Positions 9,440-64,000 of a stretch of DNA of 64,000 nucleotides are shown piece by piece (position 1 is the first letter of the stretch; each line of letters starts with the position of its first letter). Location of the stretch: the NCBI GenBank assembly GCA_046760785.1, contig JBHIET010000002.1, positions 17,052-81,051 on the forward strand. The letters run 5' to 3'. The position numbers were made by a program, and so were the translations under genes. This DNA is from Anaerolineae bacterium. Its GTDB lineage: Bacteria; Chloroflexota; Anaerolineae; B4-G1. A model generated the notes under the pieces. That model saw only the letters and a list, made by a program, of their open reading frames with translations, searched no databases and was not told the origin of the DNA.

Positions 9440-11922
9440 TGGGCTACTGCTGTTATTCTCTGAAGCGCCTCAACCTTGTCGTGACCATCGCGGTCGTTCT
9501 GGTTCAAACGGTAGGGGCCTACTTTTTCGGCAGCGGTTTCGACTTCGCTCTCTTCCGTGAGGCGACGTTGGACCACAACCCTTATGTCTGGCTCCCAGCG
9601 TATGGGTACTGGTTGCTCCGGCCGATTATGCTGCTTCCTTCTCGTCTTTCCCTGATCATAATAGTTCTTATCTCCTCTAGCTTGATGGCTTACACCGGGT
9701 ACAAGCTCACTGGAAGTGGGCTTCCGGCTTTACTCTCTTCAGCAGGTTTCCTCTCGGCGGAGACGGGTCAGATAGACGGCTTCGTCGCGTTGGGGCTGGT
9801 CTTGGGAGTCTTGGCCTGCGAACGACGGAAGCCTCACTTGCTGGGGGGCGCGCTTCTGTTGATGTCCCTGAAGCCGCACATTACCCTGGTCGCGGCCGTG
9901 TGGCTGATTGTGTACCTGCGCGATTGGCGCACGCTCCTGATCCCGGCGGGCGTATTCTTGCTCTCTCTGCTCACGGATGGGTTGTGGCCACTGGGTTTGC
10001 TCCAATCCCCGCCTCACGTTACCATGGTACCGCATAACATCTCGCTGTGGAGGCTCTGCGGCCCGTCTCTTCTTCCTTTGCTGGCCTTGCCTTTTCTGTT
10101 CGGTAGGCGCGATCCCCGGCGCGCGGTGACGCTGGCCGTCGCTGCGTCTGCTCTGGCGATGCCTTACTACAATTTCTACAGCCTGGACGTACTCTTCGGT
10201 GTGGGCGTTTCTCCCTGGCTGGTCCCTCTGACCTATATCCCGTTCCTGCCCTGGCCGGCGCAGTGGGAAGCCTGGCACGTCCTCGTATTGGCGTTCGTCC
10301 CGGCCCTGGGGCTGATCCTGCTGCTGGTGCGGCAGCGCTCTGGGTGGCGACGCTCTCGGTGGCTTCGGAGTTGGTACCGGCCGCTGCTGATCCTGCTGAC
10401 AGCGTTTCTGGCGCGGACGATCCACCTGCAGGGCCGCGCACTCTGGTACGACGAGTCCTTCGCCGCCCTGTACGCCTCTTTGAGTCCCGGCCAGATGATC
10501 TACGGCACGGTGGCGCCGGTGGCAGGGGCCGGCGCGGCCGACGTCCATCCCCTGCTCTACTACTTCCTGCTCCATGGCTGGATGGGGTTGGTGGGCCACT
10601 CTCCCCTGGCGCTGCGTTTCCTCTCTGTGGCTTTGGGCATGATCGCCGTGGCCCTGCTCTGGCGGCTGGCGGCCTGGTGCTTTGGTCGTCGGACGGGTTT
10701 GGTGGTGGGGTTGCTGGCGGCGGTGAACCCCTTCCACGTGGCCTACTCTCAGGAGGCACGGATGTACGGGTTGCTGGGCCTGGCGGCAGTGACAGCGGCT
10801 TGGGGGTTGCTGCGAGCACTGGAGGGCGCAGAGGAGCAAGGGACAACACGCAACACGCAACACGCAACACGCGACACGTTTCACGTTCTTGGTCATTGGT
10901 CATTGTTCATTGTGGGAGCTGCCCTCACCCTCTACGCCCACAACCTGGGTGCCTTTGTCCTGCTGGCTTTCCATCTGTTGGTCGTCGTCCGCCGCCGCTG
11001 GTGGCGTCGCCTGCCGGCCCTGGCCCTGGCCGACCTGGCCGCGCTGGCCCTCTTCGGTCCTTGGCTGGTGCTGGTGTTGCCGGGGCAGGTGGGTTTTGTG
11101 GGAAGAGGGTATTGGCTGACGCCGCCGGGCGTTGAGGAGGCGGTTCGTGCCATCATGCTCCCGCTCCTCACCTTCTACGAGCCTGCGCCGCTATGGCTCC
11201 TGGGGTTGAGCCTCTTCACAGGCGTGTTGCTCCTGACCCTGCTGATCCTGCGGCTCTGGCGGACCCGCTCGCGGGCCGGTTGGTTCCTCTTGCTGTGCTG
11301 GGTGCCGATCTTGCTCATCCTGCTCGCCTCCCTCTGGCGACCGGTCTACCTGGAGCGGGCACTGTTGCCCTCGGAGCTCTTTTATCTGGTGTCGGTGGGA
11401 TGGCTCCTGGCGCGGGGAGGGCTGCCGCGTCTCTTGCGCCTGGCGCTCGCGCTGCTGCTGGCGCTGGCGACACTGGGAGCGCTGGGGGTTCACTATACCT
11501 ACGCTCGTTTCCCCCGCCCCCCATTCGCCCGGCTGACCGCCTTTCTGCGGGAGAGAGTGACTCACGGGGAGGTGGTGGTCCACGACAACAAACTCACCTT
11601 CTTCCCGGCTCACTATTATGACCCCGCGCTGCCCCAAACTTTCTGCCCCGATCTGCCCGGCAGCGGCTCGAACACGCTGGCGCTGCCCACCCAAGAGGCA
11701 TTGGGGCTCTTTGCCACCCCCATCAGCCAGACGGTGGCCAGCGGGGTGACGGGGGTGTGGTACGTGGCCTTTGACCGCACCTGGGAGGAGTATCGCGTCC
11801 TGGGCTACGCCGACGCGCCCAACCGGACCTGGCTGCGTGCCCGCTGCCACCGGGAGGGGGAGGTGCACACGATCGCCGATCTGGAGATCTACCACTTTGC
11901 GAATTGTGAGGCAGAGCCGTGA
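9439..11922 (+). CDS. Two-domain polytopic membrane glycosyltransferase: N-terminal DUF2029-like domain fused to a C-terminal ArnT/PMT-like GT-C domain
   Basis: ATG at 9439 overlaps the upstream TAA by 1 nt (TAATG). First ~300 aa carry DFALFREATLDHNPYVW (DUF2029-like). Second half carries RTIHLQGRALWYDESFAALY (W-x-DE ArnT/PMT motif). Contains an in-frame heptamer repeat tract at 10844-10913. Confidence 0.6.
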   Translation: MGYCCYSLKRLNLVVTIAVVLVQTVGAYFFGSGFDFALFREATLDHNPYVWLPAYGYWLLRPIMLLPSRLSLIIIVLISSSLMAYTGYKLTGSGLPALLSSAGFLSAETGQIDGFVALGLVLGVLACERRKPHLLGGALLLMSLKPHITLVAAVWLIVYLRDWRTLLIPAGVFLLSLLTDGLWPLGLLQSPPHVTMVPHNISLWRLCGPSLLPLLALPFLFGRRDPRRAVTLAVAASALAMPYYNFYSLDVLFGVGVSPWLVPLTYIPFLPWPAQWEAWHVLVLAFVPALGLILLLVRQRSGWRRSRWLRSWYRPLLILLTAFLARTIHLQGRALWYDESFAALYASLSPGQMIYGTVAPVAGAGAADVHPLLYYFLLHGWMGLVGHSPLALRFLSVALGMIAVALLWRLAAWCFGRRTGLVVGLLAAVNPFHVAYSQEARMYGLLGLAAVTAAWGLLRALEGAEEQGTTRNTQHATRDTFHVLGHWSLFIVGAALTLYAHNLGAFVLLAFHLLVVVRRRWWRRLPALALADLAALALFGPWLVLVLPGQVGFVGRGYWLTPPGVEEAVRAIMLPLLTFYEPAPLWLLGLSLFTGVLLLTLLILRLWRTRSRAGWFLLLCWVPILLILLASLWRPVYLERALLPSELFYLVSVGWLLARGGLPRLLRLALALLLALATLGALGVHYTYARFPRPPFARLTAFLRERVTHGEVVVHDNKLTFFPAHYYDPALPQTFCPDLPGSGSNTLALPTQEALGLFATPISQTVASGVTGVWYVAFDRTWEEYRVLGYADAPNRTWLRARCHREGEVHTIADLEIYHFANCEAEP
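10844..10913. repeat. Ten-unit heptanucleotide tandem repeat tract (CAACACG x4, CGACACG, TTTCACG, then TCATTGG/TCATTGT units) lying in-frame inside the GT-C gene
   Basis: Read directly: caacacg caacacg caacacg caacacg cgacacg tttcacg ttcttgg tcattgg tcattgt tcattgt. Encodes the low-complexity peptide TTRNTQHATRDTFHVLGHWSLFIV between TM segments. Confidence 0.8.
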
Positions 11923-13574
11923 GTTGGGAAGTCTCGTGGAAGGAATACCGCTGGGCGGCGGCGGTCGCCTTGGTGGTGGTGGCTCTCTCTACCATCCCGT
12001 ATGCCGCCGGTTACCTGGCCCAGACTCCTGACCTGCGCTTTGCCGGAGCCGTTTTCGATCTGGAGGATTATCACAGCCACCTGGCCAAGATGTGGCAGGG
12101 ATACTGGGGGGAGTGGCGCTACCGGCTGCTCTTTACCTCCGAGGAGCACGAGGGTGCGTATCTGCAGACGTTCTACGTGGCGTTGGGCCATTGTGCACGA
12201 CTGCTGGGATTGGGCCTGCCGCTCACCTACCACCTGGCACGGGTTGTGGCGGGCGTGGTGCTCCTGCTGACCGTCTACCGCTTCGTCGCGCTCTTCACCG
12301 CCGGGGAGGTGCGGAGCGTTGCCTTCCTGCTGGCGGCCACCTCTTCCGGCCTGGGATGGCTGGTCGAGGGGCTGTGCCCCACGCCGCCGGGTGGGATCTC
12401 CCCCATTGATTTCTGGCTCATTGACGCCTACACCTTCTTTTCCCTGTTCACCTTTCCCCATTTCTCCGCTGCCGTCGCGCTCTTACTTTCGCTGTACGGG
12501 ATGCTGCTGCGGTTGGCGGAAGGTGTGTCGCCTGGAAGCGTGCCACGTTTGCGAGATGTGGTGGCAGTGATTCTCCTATCCTGGGGATTGGGCCTCGTCC
12601 ACCCCTATGCCCTGCTCCTGGCCGACCTGGTTCCGGCGCTCTATCTGATCTGGCGCACCGTCGTGGAACGACGATTGCCCCTGCGCCTGCTGCTCGCCCT
12701 GGTTGCGATGGGACTGGCCCAGGCACCGCTCCTGCTGTACGACTACCGCGTCTTTGCCACCTCACCTGTCTTTGGTGCCTGGTCTGCTCAGAACCTCACC
12801 CTCTCTCCGCCTCCTCTGCACTACCTCCTGGGTTACGGCGTCGTGGCGCTGCTGGCAGCGTGGGGAGTTCGTTCGGCCCTCCGGGCTTCCCGACGCGTTC
12901 CGTTCCTGCTTCTGTGGGTTGTTGTCGCCTTCTCTCTGGCGTACTTTCCCTGGGGGTTGCAGCGCCGCTTCGTCGAGGGCCTCCACGCGGGGTTGTGCGT
13001 GCTGGCGGGGTACGGACTGGTGGAGGGGCTGCTGCCCGTGTTGGCCCGACCACTGGGGCGGCTGGCCCGTCTCCTGCACTACAGTCCCCGGCGGCTGCGC
13101 TGGTTGGCGCGGGGGCTGGTCCTGGCGCTGGCCGCTCTCTCCAATCTCTACCTGATCGCCACCTACACGCTGGCGGCAGCGGCCTGGCACCCGGACCTGT
13201 TTCACTCTGCCGATCAAGTCGCAGCCGGGGAGTGGCTAGCGGCCAACACCGAATGGCAGGAGACGGTGCTGGCTGCTTATGAAACCGGCAATTGGCTCGC
13301 CGGGACCATCGGTCGCCGGGTAGTGCTGGGCCACTGGGCGGAGACGATGGATTGTGAGGCGAAGCGGGAGCAGGTGGCAGCCTTCTACTCGGAGGGCGCG
13401 TCTGAGGCGGAGCGGCGCGGGTTGTTGGAGCGATGGAACGTGCACTACGTCTACCTTGGCCCGGAGGAGCGGGCGCTGGGTGGGTTCGATCCAGCAATGA
13501 CCTCATACCTGAAGCTGGTGTTCCAGCAGGGGGATGCATCGGTCTACCGGGTGACGCTGGAGGGGGCACCGTGA
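11919..13574 (+). CDS. Polytopic membrane protein of the same array (GT-C-like, family not recognised)
   Basis: GTG start overlapping the upstream stop (GTGA). At least 12 predicted TM helices. Soluble C-terminal ~120 aa domain. Positioned between ArnT-like paralogs. Confidence 0.45.
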   Translation: MSWEVSWKEYRWAAAVALVVVALSTIPYAAGYLAQTPDLRFAGAVFDLEDYHSHLAKMWQGYWGEWRYRLLFTSEEHEGAYLQTFYVALGHCARLLGLGLPLTYHLARVVAGVVLLLTVYRFVALFTAGEVRSVAFLLAATSSGLGWLVEGLCPTPPGGISPIDFWLIDAYTFFSLFTFPHFSAAVALLLSLYGMLLRLAEGVSPGSVPRLRDVVAVILLSWGLGLVHPYALLLADLVPALYLIWRTVVERRLPLRLLLALVAMGLAQAPLLLYDYRVFATSPVFGAWSAQNLTLSPPPLHYLLGYGVVALLAAWGVRSALRASRRVPFLLLWVVVAFSLAYFPWGLQRRFVEGLHAGLCVLAGYGLVEGLLPVLARPLGRLARLLHYSPRRLRWLARGLVLALAALSNLYLIATYTLAAAAWHPDLFHSADQVAAGEWLAANTEWQETVLAAYETGNWLAGTIGRRVVLGHWAETMDCEAKREQVAAFYSEGASEAERRGLLERWNVHYVYLGPEERALGGFDPAMTSYLKLVFQQGDASVYRVTLEGAP

Positions 13575-15250
13575 ACCGAGTTCGGCGAGACCTGGCGGCG
13601 CTGTTCGTTCTCTCCCTGACGGTGCGGCTGGCCGTAGCCGCCCTCATCCCCCGGCCCGGTTACATGGACGCGGCCTACTACGCCGCCGGAGCGGTGCATC
13701 TTGCCGGGGGGGGAGGGGTGAATGATCCTTTCCTCTGGAACTATTTGGATGACCCCACGGGCATTCCTCACCCCGGGTTCCTCTACTGGATGCCGCTCCC
13801 CTCTCTCCTGGCGGCTCCCTTTGCCTCTCTCTTCCCGGGCTCCTTCTTTGCCCTCCAGCTTCCCTTTGCGCTTCTCTCCGCCCTGCTCCCCCTCGTCGCC
13901 TACGGGCTGGCCTGGGAAGTCGCCGGTCGGCACCGTGCGGCCTGGCTGGCGTCGCTCCTTACGCTCTTCAGCGGCTTCTTCTTCCCCTACTGGACCCTCC
14001 CGGAGACGTTTGCTCCGTTTGCCCTTTTCGGCAGCTTGGCGCTGTGGCTCGCCGGAAGATGGCGGCTGACTACTGACCACTGGCTACTGACTACTGACTA
14101 CTGGCTACTGACTACTGGCTACTGGCTACTGACTGGGTTGCTGGTCGGCCTGGCTCACCTCACCCGCGCCGATGGCATCCTGTTGTTGCCCGTGGTCGCC
14201 CTTGTCCCTCTGGCCTTCGCTCAACCACACAACGCCCAGCACGCAACACGCGCTGTCCTGAGCTTGTCGAAGGGCAATACGCAATACGTAACACGTTCGT
14301 TCATTGTTCATTGTTCATTGATCCTCCTCGGCTATCTCCTTGCGATGGCTCCCTGGTTCCTCCGCAACCTCTCCCTCATCGGCACCCCTCTCTCTCCGGC
14401 CGGCACCAAGACCCTCTGGCTGCGCACCTACGACGACATTTTCTGCTATGGCTGTGCTCTCTCCCCCCGCTCTTACCTGGCCTGGGGGTGGGGGAACATC
14501 TGGCACTCCAAATTGTGGGCGCTGGGGGTGAACCTGGAGCGGTTCCTGGCGGAGGACTGCCTGGTCTTCCTGCTGCCTTTCGTTCTCGTTGGCCTGTACC
14601 GCTTGCGCCATCGCCTCTCTTTCACCCTTGCCCTCATCTACTTTTTCCTCATTTACTTCCTCCATTCCCTGGCCTTTACTTTTCCCGGCCCTCGCGGCGG
14701 CTTCTTCCACGCCAGCGCTCCTGCCTTGCCCTTCCTCTTTGCCGCCGCTGCGGAGGGATTGGAGGCAACGCTGGGCTGGGCGGCCCGGCACCGGAGCTGG
14801 AAGCGGGGGCAGGCCCAGCTGATCTTTGGCACAGCGACGGTGGTGGCGGCGGTGATCCTGAGCGGCTACGCGACGGCGGGTAAACTGCTCGCCTGGCGGA
14901 GCGCTGACCAGGCTTATCTGGAGATTGATGTGTGGCTGGATGGGCACGACGTGCCGGATAGTACAATGGTCATGGTTGGCAACCCCCCTGCTTTTTGGTA
15001 TCATACTCGTAGACCGGCCGTGGTTGTGCCCAACGGTGATTCCGACGCGTTATTGGAGGTCTGCGCCCGTTACCGGGCGGATTACGTCGTGTTGGACGAG
15101 AACAGGCCGGGGGCGTTGGCCGGGGTGTATGAGGGTGCGAGAGTGACAGGGTTGCGGTTGATGGCGACATTCGACGGCGCGCGGGTCAGACTCTACCGCC
15201 GGGTAGAGGGGCCGGAGGGAGGATGTTTCGGCGTTTTCGACGCTTTCTGA
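13571..15250 (+). CDS. Polytopic membrane glycosyltransferase, ArnT/PMT-like GT-C fold
   Basis: GTG start overlapping the upstream stop (GTGA). N-terminal TM then YMDAAYYAAGAVHL loop typical of ArnT/PMT-like enzymes. Many TM segments. C-terminal soluble domain. Carries two in-frame repeat insertions. Confidence 0.6.
   Translation: MNRVRRDLAALFVLSLTVRLAVAALIPRPGYMDAAYYAAGAVHLAGGGGVNDPFLWNYLDDPTGIPHPGFLYWMPLPSLLAAPFASLFPGSFFALQLPFALLSALLPLVAYGLAWEVAGRHRAAWLASLLTLFSGFFFPYWTLPETFAPFALFGSLALWLAGRWRLTTDHWLLTTDYWLLTTGYWLLTGLLVGLAHLTRADGILLLPVVALVPLAFAQPHNAQHATRAVLSLSKGNTQYVTRSFIVHCSLILLGYLLAMAPWFLRNLSLIGTPLSPAGTKTLWLRTYDDIFCYGCALSPRSYLAWGWGNIWHSKLWALGVNLERFLAEDCLVFLLPFVLVGLYRLRHRLSFTLALIYFFLIYFLHSLAFTFPGPRGGFFHASAPALPFLFAAAAEGLEATLGWAARHRSWKRGQAQLIFGTATVVAAVILSGYATAGKLLAWRSADQAYLEIDVWLDGHDVPDSTMVMVGNPPAFWYHTRRPAVVVPNGDSDALLEVCARYRADYVVLDENRPGALAGVYEGARVTGLRLMATFDGARVRLYRRVEGPEGGCFGVFDAF
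14064..14133. repeat. Ten-unit heptanucleotide tandem repeat (TACTGAC/TACTGGC) in-frame inside the GT-C gene
   Basis: ggctgac tactgac cactggc tactgac tactgac tactggc tactgac tactggc tactggc tactgac. Encodes RLTTDHWLLTTDYWLLTTGYWLLTG. Confidence 0.85.
14226..14320. repeat. Composite repeat element: CACGCAA-type heptamers + 24-nt core CTGTCCTGAGCTTGTCGAAGGGCA + CAATACG/TAACACG heptamers + GTTCATT x3, in-frame in the coding sequence
   Basis: Same unit types as 10844-10913, with an added core at 14253-14275. On the + strand it encodes AVLSLSKG. Its complement encodes ALRQAQDSA (LRQAQD-type repeat peptide). Confidence 0.8.
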
Positions 15251-27852: not shown

Positions 27853-28647
27853 GTGATGTCCGATGTTTGGGGTAGGGTGAGCTTGCTGGGTATCCCCATT
27901 GACGCGCTCACGGTCTCACAGCTCCATGACGAAATCACCGGGATCATAGAGGCGGGGCAGAAGGCGCTCATACTGAACGTGAACGTCCACTGTATGAACT
28001 TGGCCTATGAGCGTCCCTGGCTGCGTGGCATGCTGAACCGCGCCCGTATTGTCTTCTGCGACGGGGCCGGGGTGATGCTGGGAGCGCGGCTACTGGGGGA
28101 GCACATCCCGGAGCGGATCACTTACGCCGACTGGCTTTGGCAATTGGCAGAACTCGCCAGCGTCAGGGGATACACGATGTTCTTCTTGGGCGCGAAAGAA
28201 GGGGTCGCACGGCTGGCTGCCCAGAATCTGACAGCCCGTTTCCCCAATCTGAAAGTGGTCGGTACGCATCACGGCTACTTTACCAGGACCGGGTCGGAGA
28301 ATAGGCGAGTGGTTGAGTTGATAAACTCCCTGCGCCCCAACATCCTGATTGTTGCTTTCGGTATGCCTCTCCAGGAGAAATGGCTCAATGAGAACTGGGA
28401 GAAGATAGAGGCCAACGTTTTCCTGACAGGTGGAGCCTGCTTTGATTATGCGGCTGGGATGGTGCCTCGCGGCCCGCGCTGGATACTTGACCATGGCCTG
28501 GAATGGTTGTATCGTCTATGGAGCGATCCGCGCCGACTGTGGCGCCGTTACGTTATCGGCAACCCGCTCTTTGTTTTGCGTGTGCTGAAACAAAGAATTG
28601 CCCGACATTCTGCTCGACAGATTGACAAAATGCACGAAATGTTATAA
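27853..28647 (+). CDS. WecG/TagA/CpsF-family (GT26) glycosyltransferase, likely ManNAc(A) transferase partnering wecB
   Basis: LLGIPIDALT...ALILNVNVHCMNLA...IVFCDGAGVMLGARLLG....FGMPLQEKW are canonical GT26 blocks. Confidence 0.8.
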   Translation: MMSDVWGRVSLLGIPIDALTVSQLHDEITGIIEAGQKALILNVNVHCMNLAYERPWLRGMLNRARIVFCDGAGVMLGARLLGEHIPERITYADWLWQLAELASVRGYTMFFLGAKEGVARLAAQNLTARFPNLKVVGTHHGYFTRTGSENRRVVELINSLRPNILIVAFGMPLQEKWLNENWEKIEANVFLTGGACFDYAAGMVPRGPRWILDHGLEWLYRLWSDPRRLWRRYVIGNPLFVLRVLKQRIARHSARQIDKMHEML

Positions 28648-28650
28648 AAT
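28622..28650 (+). promoter_or_regulatory. sigma70-like promoter (TTGACA-N15/17-TATAAA/TAAAAT) for the toxin-antitoxin pair; it overlaps the last codons of the GT26 gene
   Basis: attgacaaaatgcacgaaatgttataaaatg, read directly. RBS GGAGGTGAG follows. Confidence 0.5.
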
Positions 28651-28682
28651 GCTCTAAAGTCTCAGTGGCCAGGAGGTGAGAG

Positions 28683-29485: not shown

Positions 29486-29513
29486 ATTGACGAGGCACTT
29501 GAAGTGTTATAAA
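29486..29513 (+). promoter_or_regulatory. Second copy of the promoter module (TTGACG-N16-TATAAA), embedded in a degenerate duplicate of the GT26 3' end
   Basis: gcgtgtgctgagacaacgaattgacgaggcacttgaagtgttataaaatgg parallels 28578-28651. Confidence 0.45.
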
Positions 29514-29530
29514 ATGGCACAAATTAGCGG

Positions 29531-56855: not shown

Positions 56856-58511
56856 TCACTTCAAGATAGCTCCCTCACTGGCCGAGGAGACCATCGCCGC
56901 GTAGCGGCTCAGGTAACCCTTGGTCACTTTTGGTGCTGGTGGCTTCCAACCCTGCCGTCGCCGGGCCATCTCCTCCTCGGAGACGTGGAGCGTCAGCCGT
57001 TTATTAGGGATGTCCAACTCGATCTCGTCTCCCTCTTGCACCAGCCCAATTGGTCCACCGGCGGTCGCTTCCGGGGAGATGTGGCAGACGGCAGCCCCAC
57101 GCGTCGCGCCGGAGAAACGACCATCAGTCAGGAGAGCCACCTTGTCGTCCAACTCCATTCCAGCCAGGGCGGAGGTGGGCATCAGCATCTCTCGCATGCC
57201 TGGCCCGCCCCGAGGCCCCTCGTAGCGGATGACGACCACGTCACTCGCCTGGATGCGCCCGCCCAGGATGGCATCAAGTGCCGACTCCTCGTTCTCGAAG
57301 ACGCGAGCCGAGCCACAGTGCTGCATCATCTCCAACCGGACGGCCCCCGCCTTGACCACCGCCCCGTCGGGGGCCAGGTTGCCCCACAGGATGGCGATTC
57401 CGCCGTCGGGCCGGTGGGGGTCGTCTGCCGGGCGGATGACGTCGGAAAGGCGGCGTGCCTTCTTCAGGTTCTCGGCCACCGTCCTCCCGGTCACCGTCCG
57501 CGCCTCGCCCTGCAGCAGGCCGTGGCGCAGCAGTTCCGCCATCACTGCTGGCATCCCTCCCGCCTCGTCCAGGTCCTGCATGTGATGGGGGCCGGAGGGG
57601 CTAAGTTTGACTAGGTAAGGGGTCCGGCTGCTCACCGCGTTGAACTTCTCCAGGGGGAGAGAGACGCCTGCCTCGTGGGCGATGGCCGGCAGGTGTAGCA
57701 CGGTGTTGGTCGAGCCGCCGATTGCCATATCCACGGCGATACCGTTCTCAAAAGCGGCCTCGGTCATAATGTCGCGGGGTAGAATATCCTCGCGGACCAA
57801 GTGCATAATCTGCCTCCCTGCCTGCTTGGCCAGCCGGAGGCGAGCCCCTGTGACCGCCGGGATGGTCCCGTTGCCTGGCAGCCCCATGCCCAGTGCCTCG
57901 GTCAGGCAGTTCATCGAGTTGGCAGTAAAGAGACCGGCGCAGGAGCCGCAGCCGGGGCAGGCCGCCAGCTCCAGTGCCTCCAACTCTTCCTCACTCATCC
58001 GCCCCGCTTTGACCTCTCCCACTGCCTCAAACATCGTTTTGACGTCCACATTCTGGCCCTGGTAGCGACCCGCCAGCATCGGCCCGCCGCTGACAAAGAT
58101 AGCAGGGATGTTGAGTCGGGCAGCGGCCATCAGCATGCCAGGCACGATTTTATCGCAGTTTGGAATGAGCACCAGGCCGTCAAACCTGTGAGCCGTAGCC
58201 ATGATCTCGACGGAATCGGCGATGAGCTCCCGGCTGGGCAGGGAGTAGCGCATTCCCGGATGGCCCATAGCGATGCCGTCACACACGCCGATGGTGTTGA
58301 ACTCCAGCGGCGTGCCTCTGGCCATTCGCACGCCCGCCTTTACTGCCTCGGCCACCTTGTCCAGGTGGGCGTGGCCGGGCACAATCTCGTTGTAGGAGTT
58401 GACCACCCCAATCAGAGGACGGTCCAGTTCCTCGGGCGTCAACCCGGTGGCGTAAAAGAGGCTCCGGTGAGGAGCCCGCTCAAATCCTCGTTTTGCTAGA
58501 TCGCTACGCAT
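56856..58511 (-). CDS. ilvD: Dihydroxy-acid dehydratase
   Basis: [24 protein letters not shown]..., [17 protein letters not shown] Fe-S motif. RBS GAGGAAGG. Confidence 0.95.
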
Positions 58512-59059
58512 AATCCTTCCTCACGTGGTCGAAGATGGTTTGTGAATGAGCCGAACGACCCCGCCGTCGCCTACGGCCCACAGGTTGTCGTCGCGGTCGA
58601 AGGCTGGATCGCGCACATAGTTCGCCTTGGTGTACGAGGTCCAGCCAGGGCGCAGTTCGGTATCCTTTACGCCAACACGTCCCCCTGCGAGGACACGCCG
58701 CTTGTAGGGGAGGTACTTGCGGCTATGATACACTCTATTGGCCTGGTTGGCAAATAGCAGATCGGGGTCTACGCTTCAGAAATGACAGGGGCTGAACTAA
58801 CGCAGTACCGCGAAAGTTGCTATGTGACCAGGAAGCGAGCGCCGGTTGAGCAGGCTTGGAGCGCGGCGGCTTGGGTTGAGCTTGTCGAAACCAGCCGTAT
58901 CGAAACCAAGCGGGTTGGCCGCAGAGCCGCTTACATCCTTGGTTTCGATACGCCTCCGGCTACTCAGCCCAAGTCGCTACTCAACCGGCGGATGCTCGCT
59001 ATGTCGCCCAGGCTGAAATGCTGCTTGAGACAGTGATGCCCCAAGATATTGAGGAGATC

Positions 59060-60274
59060 TTATGGCCCTATGTGTACCATCTCATCCAATCTGCGGATAA
59101 ATTCTATCGTCCGGACGGGGTCTGGCCTCTGAACAGGAGGTTTTGGCCTCTGGACAGGTTCTGGCCCTCCGACCGGTTCCGACTTTCGGGCAGGTTTGGA
59201 TTGCTTTTCGACTCTTTCGGCGATCAGCTCTCCCATCTTTCTTGTCCCAACCATTGTGCTTTCCTCCTCATAGATATCTCTGGTGCGGTAGCCTTCCTCC
59301 AGCACCATCTGTACTGCGTCTTCGATAGCTTGCGCTTCTTCCTCCAACTCCAGCGAGTAGCGGAGCAGCATCGCCGCGCTGAGGATGGTGGCGATGGGGT
59401 TGACCACGTTCTGGCCGGTGTATTTGGGGGCTGAACCGTGGATGGGCTCGAACAGGCCGGGCTTGTGCGCGCCGATGGCTCCCGAAGGCAGCATACCCAT
59501 AGACCCGGCGATCGTGGATGCCTCGTCGGTCAGGATGTCGCCGAACATGTTGCCGGTGACGATGACGTCAAATAGGTTGGGGTAGCGCACCAGCCGCATG
59601 GCCGCGATGTCCACGTACATGGATTCGAACTCCACGTCGCGGTAATCTTCAGCCACACGACTGGCCGTCTCGCGCCACAGGCGGGAGCTTTCCAGTACGT
59701 TGGCCTTGTCCACCGAGGTCACCTTCTTGCGCCGCCTGCGCGCCAGGTCGAAAGCGACGCGCACGATGCGCTCGATCTCGGGCACGGTATAGAACATGGT
59801 GTCGTAGGCCGCCGGAACGCCGTTCGTACTCTCGCGGCCCCGTTCGCCAAAGTAGATTCCACCCGTCAGTTCGCGCACCACCAGCAAATCCACGTCAGCG
59901 ATGACCTCAGGCTTGAGGGTCGAGGCGTGGAGCAGTTGCTTGTACAGTTTCACCGGCCGCAGGTTGGCAAAGACGCTCAGTCCTTTGCGCAGGGCCAGGA
60001 GTCCCTGTTCCGGGTGCACCGGCAACCGCGGATCGTCGTACTTGGGGTCGCCTACCGCGCCCAGCAGGACAGCATCGCTTTCCCGGCAGAGCGCCAGCGT
60101 CTCAGCCGGCAACGGCTCCCCCGTTGCGTCAATGGCAACTCCCCCGACCAGGGCCTCCTCGAACTCAAAGGTGTGGCCGTAGACCTCGGCTACCCGACGC
60201 AGGACCTTCACCGCCTCGGCAACGACCTCCGGGCTGATGCCATCTCCAGGTAGTGTGACAATTCTCGCTTCCAT
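59060..60274 (-). CDS. leuB: 3-isopropylmalate dehydrogenase with ~45-aa Pro-rich C-terminal extension
   Basis: VVRELTGGIYFG, NLFGDILTDEAS(M) signature. The canonical end near GELIAERV is followed by EKQSKPARKSEPVGGPEPVQRPKPPVQRPDPV..., encoded by imperfect ~18-nt tandem repeats at 59120-59200. Confidence 0.9.
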   Translation of the reverse strand: MEARIVTLPGDGISPEVVAEAVKVLRRVAEVYGHTFEFEEALVGGVAIDATGEPLPAETLALCRESDAVLLGAVGDPKYDDPRLPVHPEQGLLALRKGLSVFANLRPVKLYKQLLHASTLKPEVIADVDLLVVRELTGGIYFGERGRESTNGVPAAYDTMFYTVPEIERIVRVAFDLARRRRKKVTSVDKANVLESSRLWRETASRVAEDYRDVEFESMYVDIAAMRLVRYPNLFDVIVTGNMFGDILTDEASTIAGSMGMLPSGAIGAHKPGLFEPIHGSAPKYTGQNVVNPIATILSAAMLLRYSLELEEEAQAIEDAVQMVLEEGYRTRDIYEEESTMVGTRKMGELIAERVEKQSKPARKSEPVGGPEPVQRPKPPVQRPDPVRTIEFIRRLDEMVHIGP

Positions 60275-60328
60275 GAATTCTCCTCAGTCCTTGATAGGTG
60301 CAACGCACTTCCGAGGTGCGTCGCACCT

Positions 60329-61912
60329 CTATCTGGCCACCATCAGGCCATACTCAACCGCATCCGCCAGGGCGATCCAACTCGCTTCGATGATATTGGT
60401 GGAGGCCCCCACAGTGCTCCAGCGATGCGTCTCGTTCTGCATATCAATCAGCACACGGGTGGTCGCCGCTGTCCCATGATCCCCGTCCAGAATGTGCACT
60501 TTGTAATCGGCCAGGTTGAATTCGGCCAGGTGGGGATACACCGGCACCAACGCCTTGCGCAGGGCCACGTCCAGGGCATTCACCGGTCCGTTGCCCTCGG
60601 CCGCCGTGTGGAAGACCTGGTTGCCCACGCGCACCTTGATGCTCGCCTCGGCAAAGACTCCCCGCCCCTCCCGGTGTTCGGCGACGACCATGAAGTCCAG
60701 CATCTCGAAGGGAGGACGATACTCCGGTCGGGAGCGGTGCAGCAGCAGTTCCACCGAGGCCTCGGCCCCCTCGAAGGTAAAGCCCTGGTACTCTAATCGC
60801 TTGATCGTCTGGAGCACCCCCGGCAGATCCTCGATCTCCCGGTGCGCGATGCCCATCTCCTCCGCCTTGCTGAGCAGGTTCCCCCGGCCCGAAAGTTCTG
60901 AGACGAGAGTGCGCGACCGATTGCCCACCAGGGCGGGGTCAACGTGCTGGTAACTCTGTGGGTTGCACCGCATGGCCGCCACGTGGATGCCTCCCTTATG
61001 GGCGAAGGCGCTCCGGCCCACGTAGGCCGCCTGACGGTGAAGAGGCTGATTCGCAGTGGAGGCTACCGCGCGGGCGACCCGTGTTATGTGGGTCAGCCGG
61101 CCTGCGGGCAGGGCTGCCACTCCCATCTTCAACTCCAGGTCAGGGATCACAGTACAGAGGTTAGCGTTGCCACACCGTTCGCCGTAGCCGTTTATCGTCC
61201 CCTGCACGTGGGTGGCGCCGGCCCGGATGGCCGCCAGACTGTTCGCCACGGCCATTCCCCCATCGTTATGGGCGTGGATGCCCAGGGTGACGTCGGGGAA
61301 GGCCGATTGAACCTCCCGGAAGATGCTTTCGATCTCCCACGGCAGTGAGCCGCCGTTGGTATCGCACAGCACGAGCGTGTCTGCGCCTCCCTCGGCGGCG
61401 GCCTGAAGCGTGGCCAGGGCATAGCGGGAATCAGCCTCATAGCCATCGAAGAAGTGTTCCGCGTCGTAGATGACCTCTCGGAGAAAGTGGGTTTTTTCCG
61501 AAAAACCCGCTTTCTTCAAGCAGGCTACACTCTCCCGGATGATGCGCAGGTTCTCCTCCGGCGTGGTGCGTAGGACGTCGCGCACGTGGAGTGTCCAACT
61601 CTTGCCCACGACGGTGACCACCGGTGTCTCCGCCTCCAGCAGGGCCTGGATGTTGGCATCGGCCTGGGGCTGGCTCCCCACCCGGCACGTACTGCCGAAG
61701 GCGGCGATCCGAATCTGCCCCAGGCTCAGTTCCCGTACCCGCCGGAAGTACTCGACGTCTTTGGGATTGGAGCCTGGCCAGCCGCCCTCGACGTAGTGCA
61801 CCCCCAGCCTATCGAGCAGGCGAGTGATCTTCAACTTGTCATCTACTGAGAGGGAAATGCCCTCCCCCTGCGTGCCATCGCGCAACGTCGTGTCGTAGAG
61901 CACCACATCCAT
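60329..61912 (-). CDS. leuA: 2-isopropylmalate synthase / (R)-citramalate synthase family (LeuA/CimA, long form with LeuA_dimer domain)
   Basis: VVLYDTTLRDGTQGEGISLS, HAHNDGGMAVANSLAAIRAGATHVQGT, C-terminal regulatory domain. In a leu operon. Confidence 0.85.
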   Translation of the reverse strand: MDVVLYDTTLRDGTQGEGISLSVDDKLKITRLLDRLGVHYVEGGWPGSNPKDVEYFRRVRELSLGQIRIAAFGSTCRVGSQPQADANIQALLEAETPVVTVVGKSWTLHVRDVLRTTPEENLRIIRESVACLKKAGFSEKTHFLREVIYDAEHFFDGYEADSRYALATLQAAAEGGADTLVLCDTNGGSLPWEIESIFREVQSAFPDVTLGIHAHNDGGMAVANSLAAIRAGATHVQGTINGYGERCGNANLCTVIPDLELKMGVAALPAGRLTHITRVARAVASTANQPLHRQAAYVGRSAFAHKGGIHVAAMRCNPQSYQHVDPALVGNRSRTLVSELSGRGNLLSKAEEMGIAHREIEDLPGVLQTIKRLEYQGFTFEGAEASVELLLHRSRPEYRPPFEMLDFMVVAEHREGRGVFAEASIKVRVGNQVFHTAAEGNGPVNALDVALRKALVPVYPHLAEFNLADYKVHILDGDHGTAATTRVLIDMQNETHRWSTVGASTNIIEASWIALADAVEYGLMVAR

Positions 61913-61924
61913 AGGTCTCCTTCA

Positions 61925-62847
61925 TCAACCTACCGGCGTCAGCCAGCCGAAACGATCAGGCACGCGACCCTCCACGATGTTGAAGAATGCTTCTGCGAGA
62001 CGGGTCGTAATCGGCCCCCGCTTGCCGCTGCCCACCGCGATGCCATCCACCGAGCGGATCGGAGTGATCTCGGCGGCGGTGCCGCAGAAGAAAATCTCGT
62101 CGGCCAGATAGAGCATTTCACGGGGAATCATCTCCTCGCGCACCTCGAGGTCCATCTCGCCAGCCAGCGTGATGACACATTGCCGGGTGATGCCATCGAG
62201 GATCGAATTAGCCAATGGTGGAGTGAACAGTCGCCCGTGCCGCACGAGGAAGATATTCTCACCACTTCCTTCGCTCACGTAGCCGTTGACGTCGAGAGCG
62301 ACCCCTTCGGCGTAGCCGTGCTCCAGGGCTTCCATGATGAGGAGCTGGGAGTTGATGTACTGCCCGCCGATCTTGGCCGCTGCCGGGTAGGTGTCAGGAG
62401 CCATCCGCCGCCACGAACTCACTCCCACGTCCACACCCTCTAAGGCAGCCTCTCCCAGCAACTTGCCCCATTCTACCGTGATGATGCTCACGTGCGTTGG
62501 ACACGACCGTCCGTCCAGGTGGAAGGAGCCGCTCCACCCTCTAAAGACGACCGGTCGGATATAGCAGGCCGTGTGTCCGTTGGCCCGGATGGTGTCTAGG
62601 ACCGCCTGGTGGATTTCCTGGCGGGTGTAGGGGAGCCCCAGCCGATAAATCTTGCACGAGTCCCACATCCGGTCGAGGTGTTCTTTCAGACGGAAGACGG
62701 CCGGGCCGTCGGGCAGCGCGTAAGCACGAATGCCCTCGAAAACGCTGGAGCCGTAGTGAAGGGCGTGTGCGGCCACGTGTACCGTCGCTTGATCCCAGTC
62801 CACCAGTTGGCCGTCGAGCCAGATTTTGTCCGCTTTGCGCATCATAG
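61925..62847 (-). CDS. ilvE: Branched-chain amino acid aminotransferase
   Basis: MMRKADKIWLDGQLVDWDQATVHV matches the IlvE N-terminus. Perfect RBS AGAAGGAGA 8 nt upstream of the ATG at 62847. The six-frame ORF extends to a GTG at 62872 inside the heptamer tract. Confidence 0.9.
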
Positions 62848-62866
62848 ATTTGTGTCTCCTTCTAGG

Positions 62867-62894
62867 TTTCACGTTTCACGCTTCACGTTTGCCC
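62867..62894. repeat. Heptanucleotide tandem tract (TTTCACG TTTCACG CTTCACG TTTGCCC) at the leuD-ilvE junction; it encodes the last codons and stop of leuD
   Basis: On the minus strand, gca aac gtg aag cgt gaa acg tga = ANVKRET* of LeuD, built from CGTGAAA-type units. Same unit type as 10879-10885. Confidence 0.75.
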
Positions 62895-63384
62895 CTGCCA
62901 CTCTCTGCCGCGTATAGGGTACCAACCCTCCAGCCCTGACGATCTCCATGACGAAAGCGGGCATCGGCGTCGTCCGGTAGACCCGGCCGGTACGTTCGTT
63001 AGTGATCGTGCCAGCCCTCAGATCCATTGTCAACGGATCGCCCTTCTCCGTCCCCTCCACCGCCTCCGGACACTCCAAGATGGGCAGGCCGACGTTGATA
63101 CTGTTCCGGTAGAAGATGCGGGCGAAGCTCTTGGCGACGACGCAGCAGACGCCAGCCCCCTTGATCGCCAGCGGCGCGTGCTCCCGCGACGACCCGCAGC
63201 CGAAGTTCTCCCCGGCGACGATGACGTCCCCCGGTTGCACCGCACCGGCAAACTCTGGGGCGATGTCCTCCATGCAATGCTGCGCCAATTCCTCCGGCGT
63301 GGAAACGTTCAGGTAGCGGGCTGGAATGATGGCGTCGGTATCCACGTTGTCGCCGTACTTCCAGACCGTGCCTCTAATCTTCAT
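62869..63384 (-). CDS. leuD: 3-isopropylmalate dehydratase small subunit
   Basis: MKIRGTVWKYGDNVDTDAIIPARYL... canonical LeuD. Confidence 0.9.
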   Translation of the reverse strand: MKIRGTVWKYGDNVDTDAIIPARYLNVSTPEELAQHCMEDIAPEFAGAVQPGDVIVAGENFGCGSSREHAPLAIKGAGVCCVVAKSFARIFYRNSINVGLPILECPEAVEGTEKGDPLTMDLRAGTITNERTGRVYRTTPMPAFVMEIVRAGGLVPYTRQRVAGANVKRET

Positions 63385-63409
63385 AGTCCGACTCTGCTGC
63401 GTTGTTATG

Positions 63410-63444
63410 CAATACGCGATACGAAATACGTATTGCGTATTTCG
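63410..63444. repeat. Heptamer-based palindromic element (CAATACG CGATACG AAATACG TATTGCG TATTTCG) forming a 9-bp stem/5-nt loop hairpin in the 67-nt leuC-leuD spacer
   Basis: cgaaatacg tattg cgtatttcg is a perfect inverted repeat. Shares the GCAATACGC(A/G)ATACG string with 14275-14289. Confidence 0.7.
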
Positions 63445-63451
63445 TGCTCCG

Positions 63452-64000
63452 TTATACTACCTCTCCTGGATGCACGATCCGTCCCGCCACCGCGCTCGCC
63501 GCCGTGACGGCCGGCCCGGCCAGATAGACCTCGCTCTCCGGGTGACCCATCCGCCCGCGGAAGTTGCGGTTGGTCGTGCTCACCGCTCGCTCGCCGGCGG
63601 CCAACACGCCCATGTGACCGCCCAGGCAGGGGCCACAGGTTGGCGTGCTGACCGCCGCGCCCGCTTCGATGAATGTCTCGATCAGCCCCTCACGCAGCGC
63701 GTCCAGGTAGACCTGCTGGCTGCCGGGGATGACGATGCAGCGCACGTCGGGGTGAACCCGGCGGCCGCGCAGCACTTCAGCGGCAACGCGCAGGTCTTCC
63801 AGGCGGCCGTTGGTGCAGGAGCCGATGACAGCCTGGTCAATGCACACGTCGCTGGCCTGGCGCACCGGTCGGGCGTTCTCCGGCAGGTGAGGGAACGCCA
63901 CCTGCGGCTCGATCTGGCTCACGTCAATCTCGACGACCCGGGCATAAGCCGCATCGCTGTTGGCCTGGTAGACGCAATAGGGACGCGAGGCGCGACCGTT
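63452..64000 (-). CDS. leuC: 3-isopropylmalate dehydratase large subunit (C-terminal part; gene continues beyond the window end)
   Basis: ...[57 protein letters not shown] aconitase-family C-terminus. Frame open to 64000. Confidence 0.85.

What the first reader, a model, noticed from the sequence alone, without database searches (positions are those of the whole stretch)
62867..63444. Same heptamer repeat family occupies leu-operon gene junctions, builds the LeuD C-terminus and stop codon, and forms a hairpin between leuC and leuD
At 62867-62894, TTTCACG/CTTCACG units (the unit seen at 10879-10885) encode the last residues and the stop of leuD (…ANVKRET*). They sit 20 nt upstream of the ilvE RBS. 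At 63410-63444, CAATACG/CGATACG/AAATACG/TATTGCG/TATTTCG units form a perfect 9-bp hairpin in the 67-nt leuC-leuD spacer. The string GCAATACGC(A/G)ATACG is shared with 14275-14289. So one dispersed element family of 7-nt periodicity is found inside membrane-protein genes, at ORF ends and in intra-operon spacers. This looks like a small non-autonomous mobile or recombinogenic element class. The leuC-leuD and leuD-ilvE copies could modulate translational coupling or mRNA processing within the operon.
Basis: seen in the sequence. Interest (0 to 1): 0.6.

Follow-up and report, generated by a model that had tools for sequence, protein, structure and literature searches.

The report
Seven-base tandem repeats at leu-operon junctions
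Short runs of 7-base repeats fill the gaps around the leuD gene of an uncultured Anaerolineae bacterium; they belong to a long-known but functionally unexplained class of bacterial simple-sequence repeats, and nothing found here shows that they are a mobile element.

Summary
On the mRNA (minus) strand, CGTGAAG-CGTGAAA-CGTGAAA (62887-62867) encodes the last LeuD residues and its TGA stop. The 67-nt leuC-leuD spacer holds forward and inverted NNATACG units that form a 10-bp hairpin. Period-7 runs are the only tandem period enriched in the window (4 strong runs against 0 in shuffles). ACG-N4-ACG-N4-ACG occurs 11 times against 0.6 expected.

These are heptanucleotide simple-sequence arrays of the kind known as STRR in cyanobacteria, GGGAATC in Xanthomonas and TAACTGA in Beggiatoaceae. 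Six of 15 related Chloroflexota loci, the window included, carry such arrays right after the leuC stop. The other nine have no real spacer, eight of them a 4-nt ATGA overlap. On a crude tree the array-bearing loci are scattered.

The LeuD tail beyond ...YTRxRL is hypervariable in 120 homologues. In an ArnT-like glycosyltransferase, the same two loops carry heptamer-coded 7-residue repeats in most of 28 homologues, changing in 7- or 14-residue steps.

I found no inverted ends, target duplications or fixed boundaries, so the mobile-element reading is not supported. Scrambled heptamers form arrays as often as CAACACG in viral contigs. The hairpin is not conserved. Any regulatory role is untested.

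Verdict: a new member of a known kind, of moderate-to-low interest.

The parts
62867..62887 (-). Three tandem heptamers, CGTGAAG CGTGAAA CGTGAAA on the mRNA strand. They encode part of the non-conserved LeuD tail (..NVKRET) and contain its stop codon.
   Evidence: (TRF period 7, 3.6 copies, 88% matches). The tail beyond ..YTRQRV is hypervariable in 120 homologues.
62869..62871 (-). The leuD TGA stop codon, lying inside the third heptamer. A CGTGAAA array carries TGA in one of its three frames, so any ORF reading into it stops within three units.
   Evidence: read directly from the sequence.
62843..62861 (-). The ilvE Shine-Dalgarno sequence AAGGAG (62861-62856) and start ATG (62845-62843). The array ends about 6 nt before the SD and 21 nt before the ATG.
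   Evidence: The gene call on the identical Logan contig L081 (292-1212, Aminotran_4) places the start at window 62845.
63385..63451 (-). The 67-nt leuC-leuD spacer. Eight related loci have a 4-nt ATGA stop/start overlap at this position.
63409..63445 (-). Heptamer block. On the + strand it reads CAATACG CGATACG AAATACG, then the inverted units TATTGCG TATTTCG.
63421..63445 (-). RNA hairpin made by the forward and inverted units: ACGAAAUACG / loop CAAUA / CGUAUUUCGU. It ends 36 nt upstream of the leuD ATG.
   Evidence: The 51-nt context folds at -14.5 kcal/mol with z = -2.6. No U-run follows, and no terminator-like site was found on this strand. There is no Rfam family match.
10844..10913 (+). 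Same repeat class inside a GT87/PMT_2 membrane glycosyltransferase gene: CAACACG x4, CGACACG, TTTCACG, then TTGGTCA x2 and TTGTTCA. It is read in frame as ..TTRNTQHATRDTFHVLGHWSLFIV..
14066..14134 (+). About 10 CTGACTA/CTGGCTA units inside the ArnT-like gene (loop 1). There is a 21-nt super-period: every third unit is CTGGCTA, which avoids an in-frame TGA.
   Evidence: period 21 gives 95% matches, period 7 gives 87%.
14237..14320 (+). Loop 2 of the ArnT-like gene: CAGCACG CAACACG, a 24-nt insert, CAATACG x2, TAACACG, then TTCATTG x3. This corresponds to the peptides RNTQHAT.. and FIVHCSL seen in homologues.

Best explanation
The two features are short arrays of heptanucleotide simple-sequence repeats. 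They belong to the same class as cyanobacterial STRRs, Xanthomonas GGGAATC repeats and Beggiatoaceae TAACTGA repeats, here in an uncultured Anaerolineae (Chloroflexota) genome.

Inferred origin. The arrays arise and change length by slipped-strand mispairing or unequal exchange, in 7-nt steps in non-coding DNA and 21-nt steps inside genes. Fold-back template switching creates the inverted blocks. The arrays persist where length is free to vary: operon junctions, non-conserved C-terminal tails and loops of polytopic membrane proteins.

Shown for the leu operon. (a) The 67-nt heptamer spacer stands where eight related loci have the leuC stop and leuD start overlapping by 4 nt. leuD therefore cannot be translated by the tight stop/start coupling those loci allow (inference). 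(b) The abutting forward and inverted units form a modest 10-bp hairpin. It is a by-product of the array architecture and not a conserved structure. (c) leuD reads into the downstream array, which adds a non-conserved tail and supplies the TGA stop.

Inferred effect. Consequences for expression are probably small: spacing, loss of coupling, and a weak mRNA stem. Whether selection uses them is not shown.
For: Period 7 is the only enriched tandem period in the window. It is also the commonest in 1.15 Mb of unrelated LeuD-anchored loci: 19 arrays against 8 or fewer for every other period from 4 to 12.

Four unrelated window sites share NNN(C/T)ACG units.

The same junction carries such arrays, in register right after the leuC stop, in L001, L002, L003, L007 and L214. 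Eight relatives have the ATGA overlap and one has a 5-nt gap.

Copy number changes quickly and in frame. ArnT homologues that are 93-95% identical outside the loops differ by 7 or 14 residues inside them. The window array at 14066-14134 has a 21-nt super-period that avoids TGA.

LeuD tails beyond ..YTRxRL run from 0 to 23 residues and are hypervariable. One (P0126) is a QKWSART repeat. Several end ..NDQ*, and in L212 this ending is read from a CCAATGA array that supplies the TGA.

Other junctions in relatives behave the same way. In L088, 7 of 11 arrays are at gene junctions and 4 overlap a stop codon. L007 and L212 carry arrays at the leuD 3' junction.

Inverted heptamer blocks that form hairpins recur. 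L001 has a 10-bp stem in the same spacer. It also has a roughly 100-bp stem in its ilvC-leuA spacer (-146 kcal/mol, z = -14).

Literature. Heptamers are the most abundant long SSR class, and polymerase slippage has been proposed as the cause (PMC4679880, summarising an earlier survey of long SSRs in prokaryotic genomes). Dispersed heptamer families sit within 0-50 bp of ORF ends and overlap stop codons (PMC4692102).
Against: No copy-number polymorphism was seen. Assemblies from five sequencing runs of what looks like one sample series are base-identical to the window across the arrays they cover. Slippage is therefore inferred from comparison between species and was not observed directly.

Pure local slippage does not by itself explain two things: why unrelated sites in one genome use related units, and why the composite CAACACG-array plus TTCATTG/TTGGTCA-array appears in two unrelated genes.

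CAACACG arrays in metagenome contigs lie on the sense strand of the long ORF 35 times against 5. This points to some transcription- or translation-linked constraint. Tolerance of the encoded peptide could account for it inside genes.

Only 64 kb of this genome was available, so 'genome-wide' is an extrapolation.
Confidence: 0.7

Rival explanations
1. Functional cis-element on the mRNA. The heptamer arrays would be selected spacers or protein-binding sites that set translation of the downstream gene or direct mRNA processing in the operon. A period-7 triplet such as ACG-N4 suits an oligomeric RNA-binding protein of the HutP type, or cold-shock/S1-type proteins. Inverted blocks would serve as nuclease targets.
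For: Arrays end 21-25 nt upstream of the ilvE and leuD start codons.

The same junction is occupied in six Chloroflexota loci, the window included, although the units differ. All read (A/G)CG-N-AA-Y on the sense strand.

CAACACG arrays show a sense-strand bias of 35 to 5.

In L088 the junction arrays are purine-rich GGAGAAT/GGAGGAT units on the sense strand, resembling Shine-Dalgarno sequences.

L001 has a roughly 100-bp hairpin inside an operon.

Precedents exist. TAACTGA repeats lie just upstream of start codons, with S1, Csp and CsrA proposed as binders (PMC4679880). A heptamer SSR in a Haemophilus 5'-UTR acts together with an RNase III-targeted element (PMC12721329, abstract).
Against: Nine of the 15 compared loci, some of them among the closest, lack the spacer altogether.

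The hairpin is absent from L002, L003 and L007 (z = -0.7, +1.2, -0.3).

The leuD-ilvE units are in the opposite orientation to the TTTCACG units seen elsewhere.

The same units also sit inside coding loops, where an RNA-site role is unlikely.

A strict test for an SD plus start codon downstream of arrays was underpowered (6 against 1, about 2 expected).

No candidate binding protein was identified.
Confidence: 0.15
2. Small non-autonomous mobile element. A MITE-like unit made of heptamers would insert at gene junctions and into tolerant loops.
For: Related units occur at unrelated sites.

The same composite, a CAACACG-type run followed by a TTCATTG/TTGGTCA run, appears in two glycosyltransferase genes that show no significant similarity.

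CAACACG arrays occur in a Nitrospirota contig as well as in Chloroflexota, and in viral contigs.
Against: There are no terminal inverted repeats, target-site duplications or constant length. Each site has its own mix of units.

Arrays are position-conserved across many lineages and vary by unit number in place.

Scrambled heptamers are as common as CAACACG in viral contigs (17, 14 and 34 stretches against 16). Wide occurrence therefore does not indicate spread of one element.

No transposase was linked to the arrays.
Confidence: 0.07
3. Contingency (phase-variation) loci. Because 7 is not a multiple of 3, gaining or losing one unit would shift the frame and switch a gene off or alter its C-terminus. 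This is plausible for the surface-glycan glycosyltransferases and could conceivably alter the LeuD tail.
For: Heptamer arrays sit inside two GT-C glycosyltransferase genes in a polysaccharide gene cluster. SSR-driven switching of surface structures is well established in pathogens (PMC4692102, introduction; PMC8262952, abstract).
Against: Every length difference seen between homologues is in frame, in 7- or 14-residue steps. No out-of-frame allele was seen in the independent assemblies.

For leuD, a +/-1-unit change would only alter a non-conserved tail. Switching a housekeeping biosynthetic operon makes little sense.
Confidence: 0.06

Closest known systems
STRR (short tandemly repeated repetitive sequences) of heterocystous cyanobacteria, including GGGGA(C/T)T in Nostoc PCC 7120
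   Same: Heptanucleotide units in head-to-tail arrays of a few to tens of copies. A few unit families are dispersed over many loci in one genome, mostly near ORF ends. No function is known (PMC4692102, which also cites the original Calothrix report).
   Different: The phylum is different (Chloroflexota, class Anaerolineae). The units differ: NNN(C/T)ACG, TTCATTG/TTGGTCA and CTGACTA. From my own memory, unverified here, one STRR unit is TTGGTCA. The units here have no G-quadruplex potential. A larger share lies inside genes, as in-frame 7-residue peptide repeats.
TAACTGA direct repeats of marine Beggiatoaceae, some Cyanobacteria and Bacteroidetes (MacGregor 2015, PMC4679880)
   Same: A dispersed heptamer family, mostly in intergenic spacers directly upstream of start codons. 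Some arrays lie in ORFs, where they give 7-residue peptide repeats. Long arrays occur in spacers that close relatives lack. The family is seen in several phyla with no evident transfer mechanism.
   Different: In Beggiatoaceae a single unit dominates. Here several unit families coexist, inverted blocks form hairpins, and my scrambled-unit control suggests that occurrence across phyla may simply reflect the high background of heptamer arrays.
GGGAATC repeats of Xanthomonas (Rehm et al. 2015, PMC4692102)
   Same: About 190 dispersed heptamer arrays per genome, over-represented in non-coding DNA. Most lie within 0-50 bp of an ORF start or end, and some overlap the stop codon, which is exactly the leuD situation.
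   Different: Those units are G-rich, prefer four copies and form G-quadruplexes in vitro. The leu-operon units cannot.
Long simple-sequence repeats of prokaryotes in general (an earlier survey, as summarised in PMC4679880 and PMC4692102)
   Same: Heptanucleotide units are the most abundant class of 5-11-nt SSRs, especially in large, GC-rich, non-pathogen genomes. Polymerase slippage with a 7-nt contact length has been proposed as the cause.
   Different: That work was a statistical survey. Here the same junction and the same protein loops can be followed across dozens of lineages.
MITEs and REP/BIME-type intergenic elements
   Same: Small, dispersed, often hairpin-forming sequences at gene junctions within operons.
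   Different: Those elements have defined length, ends and (for MITEs) target duplications. The arrays here have none and vary by unit number.

Membership tests
Dispersed heptanucleotide SSR family (STRR-like) | Unit of 7 nt repeated head to tail | tested here: met
   TRF reports period 7 at 62866-62890, 10844-10878, 10889-10912, 14066-14134, 14274-14288 and 14299-20. My own run scan agrees.
Dispersed heptanucleotide SSR family (STRR-like) | Period-7 arrays over-represented relative to chance and to other periods | tested here: met
   Four strong runs against 0.0 in shuffles, with no other period from 5 to 12 enriched. The ACG-N4 triple occurs 11 times against 0.61 expected.
Dispersed heptanucleotide SSR family (STRR-like) | Same or related units at many unlinked loci of one genome | tested here: inconclusive
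   Four unrelated sites within 64 kb share NNN(C/T)ACG units. The rest of the genome could not be reached. Only the 87.6-kb NCBI contig and short Logan contigs are on record.
Dispersed heptanucleotide SSR family (STRR-like) | Copy number varies between related genomes at the same site | tested here: met
   The leuC-leuD spacers of five relatives carry 3-8 units. ArnT loops differ by 7 or 14 residues between proteins that are 93-95% identical.
Dispersed heptanucleotide SSR family (STRR-like) | Copy-number polymorphism within a population (a direct sign of slippage) | tested here: not met
   Assembled contigs from five sequencing runs are identical to the window across the arrays they cover. Assemblies hide minor alleles, so this is a weak test.
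MITE / small non-autonomous transposable element | Terminal inverted repeats, target-site duplication, and a constant element length | tested here: not met
   The boundaries differ at every site, and the spacers align only through the heptamer phase. The only flanking direct repeat is a 5-mer, ATAAC, read at a length where chance matches are common. The repeat search found no long repeated element.
Intrinsic transcription terminator | GC-rich stem followed by a U-run | tested here: not met
   No terminator-like site was found on the minus strand in 62600-63700. The stem is AU-rich and is followed by UAUCGCG.
Any curated RNA family (Rfam 15) | Covariance-model match at or above the family's gathering score | tested here: not met
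   Only chance-level miRNA matches, with E of 0.33 or higher and 22.6 bits against a gathering score of 60.
Conserved structured RNA element in the leuC-leuD spacer | The hairpin is kept in relatives that have the spacer | tested here: not met
   A stem is present in the window (z = -2.6) and L001 (z = -2.0). It is absent in L002, L003 and L007.
Phase-variable contingency locus | Out-of-frame length alleles that switch the gene | tested here: inconclusive
   Only in-frame differences were seen, and the assemblies are identical. Read-level data were not available.

The most novel reading that the evidence does not exclude
Heptamer arrays in this Anaerolineae clade may be more than tolerated slippage products. 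They could be a selected, strand-oriented tuning device. At operon junctions they would replace stop/start overlaps with adjustable spacers, sometimes Shine-Dalgarno-like units and sometimes nuclease-sensitive hairpins built from inverted blocks. These would set the relative output of neighbouring genes such as LeuC:LeuD. Inside GT-C glycosyltransferase genes they would act as length-variable loops or frameshift switches for the cell surface. This would make them a general, evolvable expression rheostat in an abundant environmental phylum.
Probability: 0.15. Interest if true: 0.6.

Novelty: new member of a known kind. Interest (0 to 1): 0.35.

Why it matters
Heptanucleotide arrays have been recognised as the commonest long simple-sequence repeats in bacteria since the 2000s, yet neither their origin nor their function is settled. 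This locus adds a phylum for which I found no report (Chloroflexota, Anaerolineae).

More usefully, it offers two natural series. One is an operon junction that is either a 4-nt overlap or a heptamer spacer in close relatives. The other is two protein loops whose heptamer-coded length changes in 7-residue steps across dozens of homologues. Such series allow the tolerated-filler and tuning-device explanations to be tested by comparison and by simple reporter constructs.

For annotation, the practical lesson is that C-terminal tails and stop codons built from such arrays are not conserved protein features.

Tried and rejected
1. Known RNA family. An Rfam scan of 58000-64000 gave only chance-level miRNA matches.

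2. Terminator or promoter in the junctions. None was found on the coding strand.

3. Conserved hairpin. Five array-bearing spacers were folded. Only the window and L001 have a stem, and the whole 91-nt spacer is unremarkable (z = -1.2).

4. A 'special unit' shared across phyla.
- CAACACG x3 hit at least 120 metagenome contigs with 38-71% GC.
- One of them is a Thermodesulfovibrionia contig.
- Three scrambled heptamers of the same composition were equally or more frequent in viral contigs, so I dropped this idea.

5. Strain polymorphism. Logan contigs from five sequencing runs are identical to the window, which is uninformative.

6. Proximity of arrays to an SD plus start codon. The strict test gave 6 on the sense side against 1 on the antisense side, with 2 expected, which is too few to use.

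7. Paralogy as the reason both glycosyltransferase genes carry the same composite array. BLASTP finds no significant similarity, and the arrays sit at non-equivalent positions of the PMT_2 domain.

8. A shared 13-mer, TGAGCTTGTCGAA, at 14259 and 58877. By my own arithmetic, tens of exact 13-mer pairs are expected by chance in 64 kb, so it is not significant.

9. The source genome. The exact LeuD look-up failed at first. The genome was later identified as an NCBI 'MAG: Anaerolineae bacterium' with an 87,621-nt contig, but nothing beyond the window was retrieved.
Full report
**Setting.** The window is 61% GC. At its right end, on the minus strand, lie leuC (stop at 63452), leuD (63384..62869), ilvE (ATG 62845..61925), a citramalate/isopropylmalate synthase gene (61912..60329) and leuB (60274..59060). 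The LeuD protein and the ArnT-like protein are 100% identical to entries named 'MAG... [Anaerolineae bacterium]' from an 87,621-nt NCBI contig. Short Logan contigs from runs SRR29324583, -85, -86 and -87 match the window without a single mismatch.

On the mRNA strand the leuD end reads ..GCA AAC GTG AAG CGT GAA ACG TGA. This is three heptamers, CGTGAAG CGTGAAA CGTGAAA (62887-62867), with the TGA inside the third.
- The ilvE Shine-Dalgarno sequence AAGGAG follows after about 6 nt and the ATG after 21 nt.
- The leuC-leuD spacer is 67 nt. It contains three forward units (CAATACG, CGATACG, AAATACG on the + strand) abutting two inverted ones.
- This gives a 10-bp stem with a 5-nt loop on the mRNA. 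A competing 8-bp pairing also exists.
- The cross-references to 10879-10885 and 14274-14288 are correct.

**It is not chance.** Among periods 4-12, only period 7 yields strong tandem runs in the window (4 against 0.0 in shuffles). The pattern ACG-N4-ACG-N4-ACG occurs 11 times against 0.61 expected, and nine of these lie in four array sites.

**What it is.** The window holds period-7 arrays at 10844-10913, 14066-14134, 14237-14320, 62867-62887 and 63409-63445.
- The first three lie inside two GT-C-type membrane glycosyltransferase genes (PMT_2/GT87). These genes are not detectably similar to each other.
- In 1.15 Mb of unrelated, LeuD-anchored loci from many phyla, period 7 is also the commonest tandem period (19 arrays; 8 or fewer for every other period).
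- This matches the published picture. Heptanucleotides are the most abundant long SSR class in prokaryotes. Dispersed heptamer families are described in Nostoc/Calothrix (STRR), Xanthomonas (GGGAATC) and Beggiatoaceae (TAACTGA). They sit mostly within 50 bp of ORF ends, sometimes overlap stop codons, and sometimes lie in ORFs as 7-residue peptide repeats (PMC4679880, PMC4692102).
- I found no paper describing them in Chloroflexota.

**The leuC-leuD junction in relatives.** Six of the 15 Chloroflexota loci compared carry a 54-73-nt spacer: the window, L001, L002, L003, L007 and L214.
- In all six the spacer starts, a few bases after the leuC stop, with heptamers reading (A/G)CG-N-AA-Y on the sense strand. 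Examples are CACGCAA CACGGAA TACG.. in L001, CGCAACA x6 in L003, ACGAATT x3 in L002 and CAACACG AAACACG GAATACG in L214.
- Eight loci have leuC and leuD overlapping by 4 nt (ATGA), with the leuD Shine-Dalgarno sequence inside leuC. One (L006) has a 5-nt gap.
- The window, L001 and L003 share a homologous 3' end of the spacer (CAGGAGTCTGACA-ATG), so their spacers have a common origin while the units have turned over.
- On a crude neighbour-joining tree of LeuC+LeuD the spacer-bearing loci are scattered. L214 is sister to the overlap-type L210, and L007 lies apart. This implies repeated gain or loss.
- The overlap is the widespread state, so the spacer is probably derived. This is inference.

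**The hairpin is not the conserved feature.** It is present in the window (51 nt, -14.5 kcal/mol, z = -2.6) and in L001 (10-bp stem, z = -2.0). It is absent in L002, L003 and L007.
- No U-run follows it, and there is no terminator-like site on that strand.
- It matches no Rfam family.
- Inverted heptamer blocks do recur. The 240-nt ilvC-leuA spacer of L001 is made entirely of CCGTATT/CCGTGTT units facing ACGGAAT/ACGCAAC units. It folds into a roughly 100-bp stem (-146 kcal/mol, z = -14).
- The window's stem is a miniature of this architecture.

**The LeuD tail.** In 120 homologues the conserved core ends at ..GGLVPYTRxRL. What follows is 0-23 residues with no conservation.
- One tail (P0126) is a QKWSART repeat, which is heptamer-coded.
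- Several tails end ..NDQ*. In L212 the DNA shows this ending comes from a CCAATGA array that supplies the TGA and continues into the next junction.
- L007 has GATGGAG-type units between the leuD stop and the next start.
- So leuD reading into an array that provides its stop is a recurrent accident of this junction and not a built protein feature.

**Dynamics.** In the ArnT-like protein, two loops carry heptamer-coded repeats in most of the 28 homologues (62-74% identical to the window protein).
- Loop 1 uses different units in different lineages: WLLTTDY, WILDTRY, GEWRMEN, MQDAGCR.
- Loop 2 uses shared units: RNTQHAT (CAACACG x3), RFTFHVS (TTTCACG x3) and FIVHCSL (TTCATTG x3). DNA for two homologue loci confirms this.
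- Proteins 93-95% identical outside the loops differ by 7 or 14 residues within them. Copy number therefore changes faster than point substitution and, as expected for survivors, in 21-nt steps.
- The window array at 14066-14134 fits period 21 better than period 7 (95% against 87% matches). Every third unit is CTGGCTA, which removes an in-frame TGA.
- In L088, 7 of 11 arrays lie at gene junctions, 4 overlap a stop codon, and the units are purine-rich and Shine-Dalgarno-like on the sense strand.

**Is there a special, mobile unit?** CAACACG x3 occurs in at least 120 metagenome contigs with 38-71% GC. It is usually flanked by other xxxCACG units and often by inverted copies.
- One such contig is from Thermodesulfovibrionia (Nitrospirota).
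- However, in viral contigs three scrambled heptamers of the same composition are as frequent or more so: 17, 14 and 34 stretches, against 16 for CAACACG and 10 for TTTCACG.
- Wide occurrence therefore reflects a high background of heptamer arrays of all kinds and not the spread of one element.
- No array has inverted termini, target duplications or constant length.
- What remains unexplained by simple local slippage is that unrelated sites in one genome favour related units, and that CAACACG arrays lie on the sense strand of the long ORF 35 times against 5 (p about 1e-6). Tolerance of the encoded peptide (QHATRNT in the sense frames against Cys-rich RVACCVL in the antisense frames) could explain the bias inside genes.

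**Mechanism, with its status.**
- Shown: the arrays exist, are non-random, are position-recurrent in relatives, vary by unit number, occupy a junction that is an overlap in eight related loci, and supply the leuD stop.
- Inferred: origin and resizing by slipped-strand mispairing, inverted blocks by fold-back template switching, and persistence because these positions tolerate length change.
- Inferred consequence: leuD here must be initiated de novo from a weak Shine-Dalgarno-like GCAGAG, downstream of a modest stem, and not by stop/start coupling.
- Not shown: any regulatory use.

**Verdict.** It is an ordinary instance of a known but poorly understood repeat class in a phylum where I found no prior report. 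The mobile-element interpretation is not supported. A tuning or processing role cannot be excluded (about 15%).

Noticed in passing
window 59060-59230 (minus strand; LeuB C-terminus) and L214 4480-4552: LeuB is 404 aa. Its Iso_dh domain ends at residue 351. After it come a Pro-rich 7-residue repeat (PEPVQRP KPPVQRP; TRF period 21 at 59113-59166) and a terminal peptide TIEFIRRLDEMVHIGP*. Almost the same peptide (EPIRRIDEMVHIGP*) ends a LeuD homologue in another genome (P0172, L214). The DNA ATGGTACACATAGGGCCATA is identical in both. The nearby differences are synonymous in that frame, which hints at a protein-level C-terminal tag shared by different leu enzymes. In both genomes a 550-660-nt stretch with no called gene follows.
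   Followed up: partly
window 13433-15250 (ArnT-like gene), alignment A1: Two loops of this GT-C glycosyltransferase carry heptamer-coded 7-residue repeats in most of 28 homologues. Length changes in 7- or 14-residue steps between near-identical proteins. This could be a length-variable loop or a frameshift switch for a surface-glycan enzyme. The 24-nt insert at 14251-14274 (encoding ..AVLSLSKG..) is unique to this genome in the alignment.
   Followed up: partly
L001 6492-6734 (ilvC-leuA spacer of a related Anaerolineae MAG): The whole 240-nt spacer consists of about 15 CCGTATT/CCGTGTT units facing about 14 ACGGAAT/ACGCAAC units. It is predicted to form a stem of about 100 bp (-146 kcal/mol, z = -14) inside a branched-chain amino-acid operon. 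That is long enough to be a double-strand-specific RNase substrate.
   Followed up: partly
L088 2499-19961 (JGI contig Ga0117909_1000479): There are eleven heptamer arrays in 21.6 kb. Seven are at gene junctions and four overlap a stop codon. Nearly all are GGAGAAT/GGAGGAT/GTAGGGA units, purine-rich on the sense strand, and so amount to tandem Shine-Dalgarno-like motifs in front of genes.
   Followed up: no
L091 about 6540-6620 (Thermodesulfovibrionia contig): GAGTTAC and CAACACG heptamer runs lie inside the stop-to-stop ORF of a Mur ligase gene, just upstream of its GxxGTNGKST P-loop. The gene sits in a cell-wall gene cluster (MurC, FtsW and MraY-like neighbours, named by eye from their translations). 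I did not establish whether the runs are translated.
   Followed up: no
window 58512-59059: A roughly 550-nt stretch without a convincing gene lies between leuB and the next minus-strand gene. It contains an inverted repeat with 18-nt arms (58893-58910 and 58938-58955, 94% complementary).
   Followed up: no
window 28621-28651 and 29486-29516: A 31-nt motif, ATTGAC..N..TGTTATAAAATG, occurs twice 865 nt apart. It looks like a repeated -35/-10 promoter in front of small genes.
   Followed up: no
L020 1-119 (uncultured Anaerolineales): Directly upstream of leuD lies a tandem repeat with a period of about 27 nt (GACGGGGACGAGCCCCGATGCTACGGG, about 4 copies). This is a different repeat type at the same junction.
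   Followed up: no
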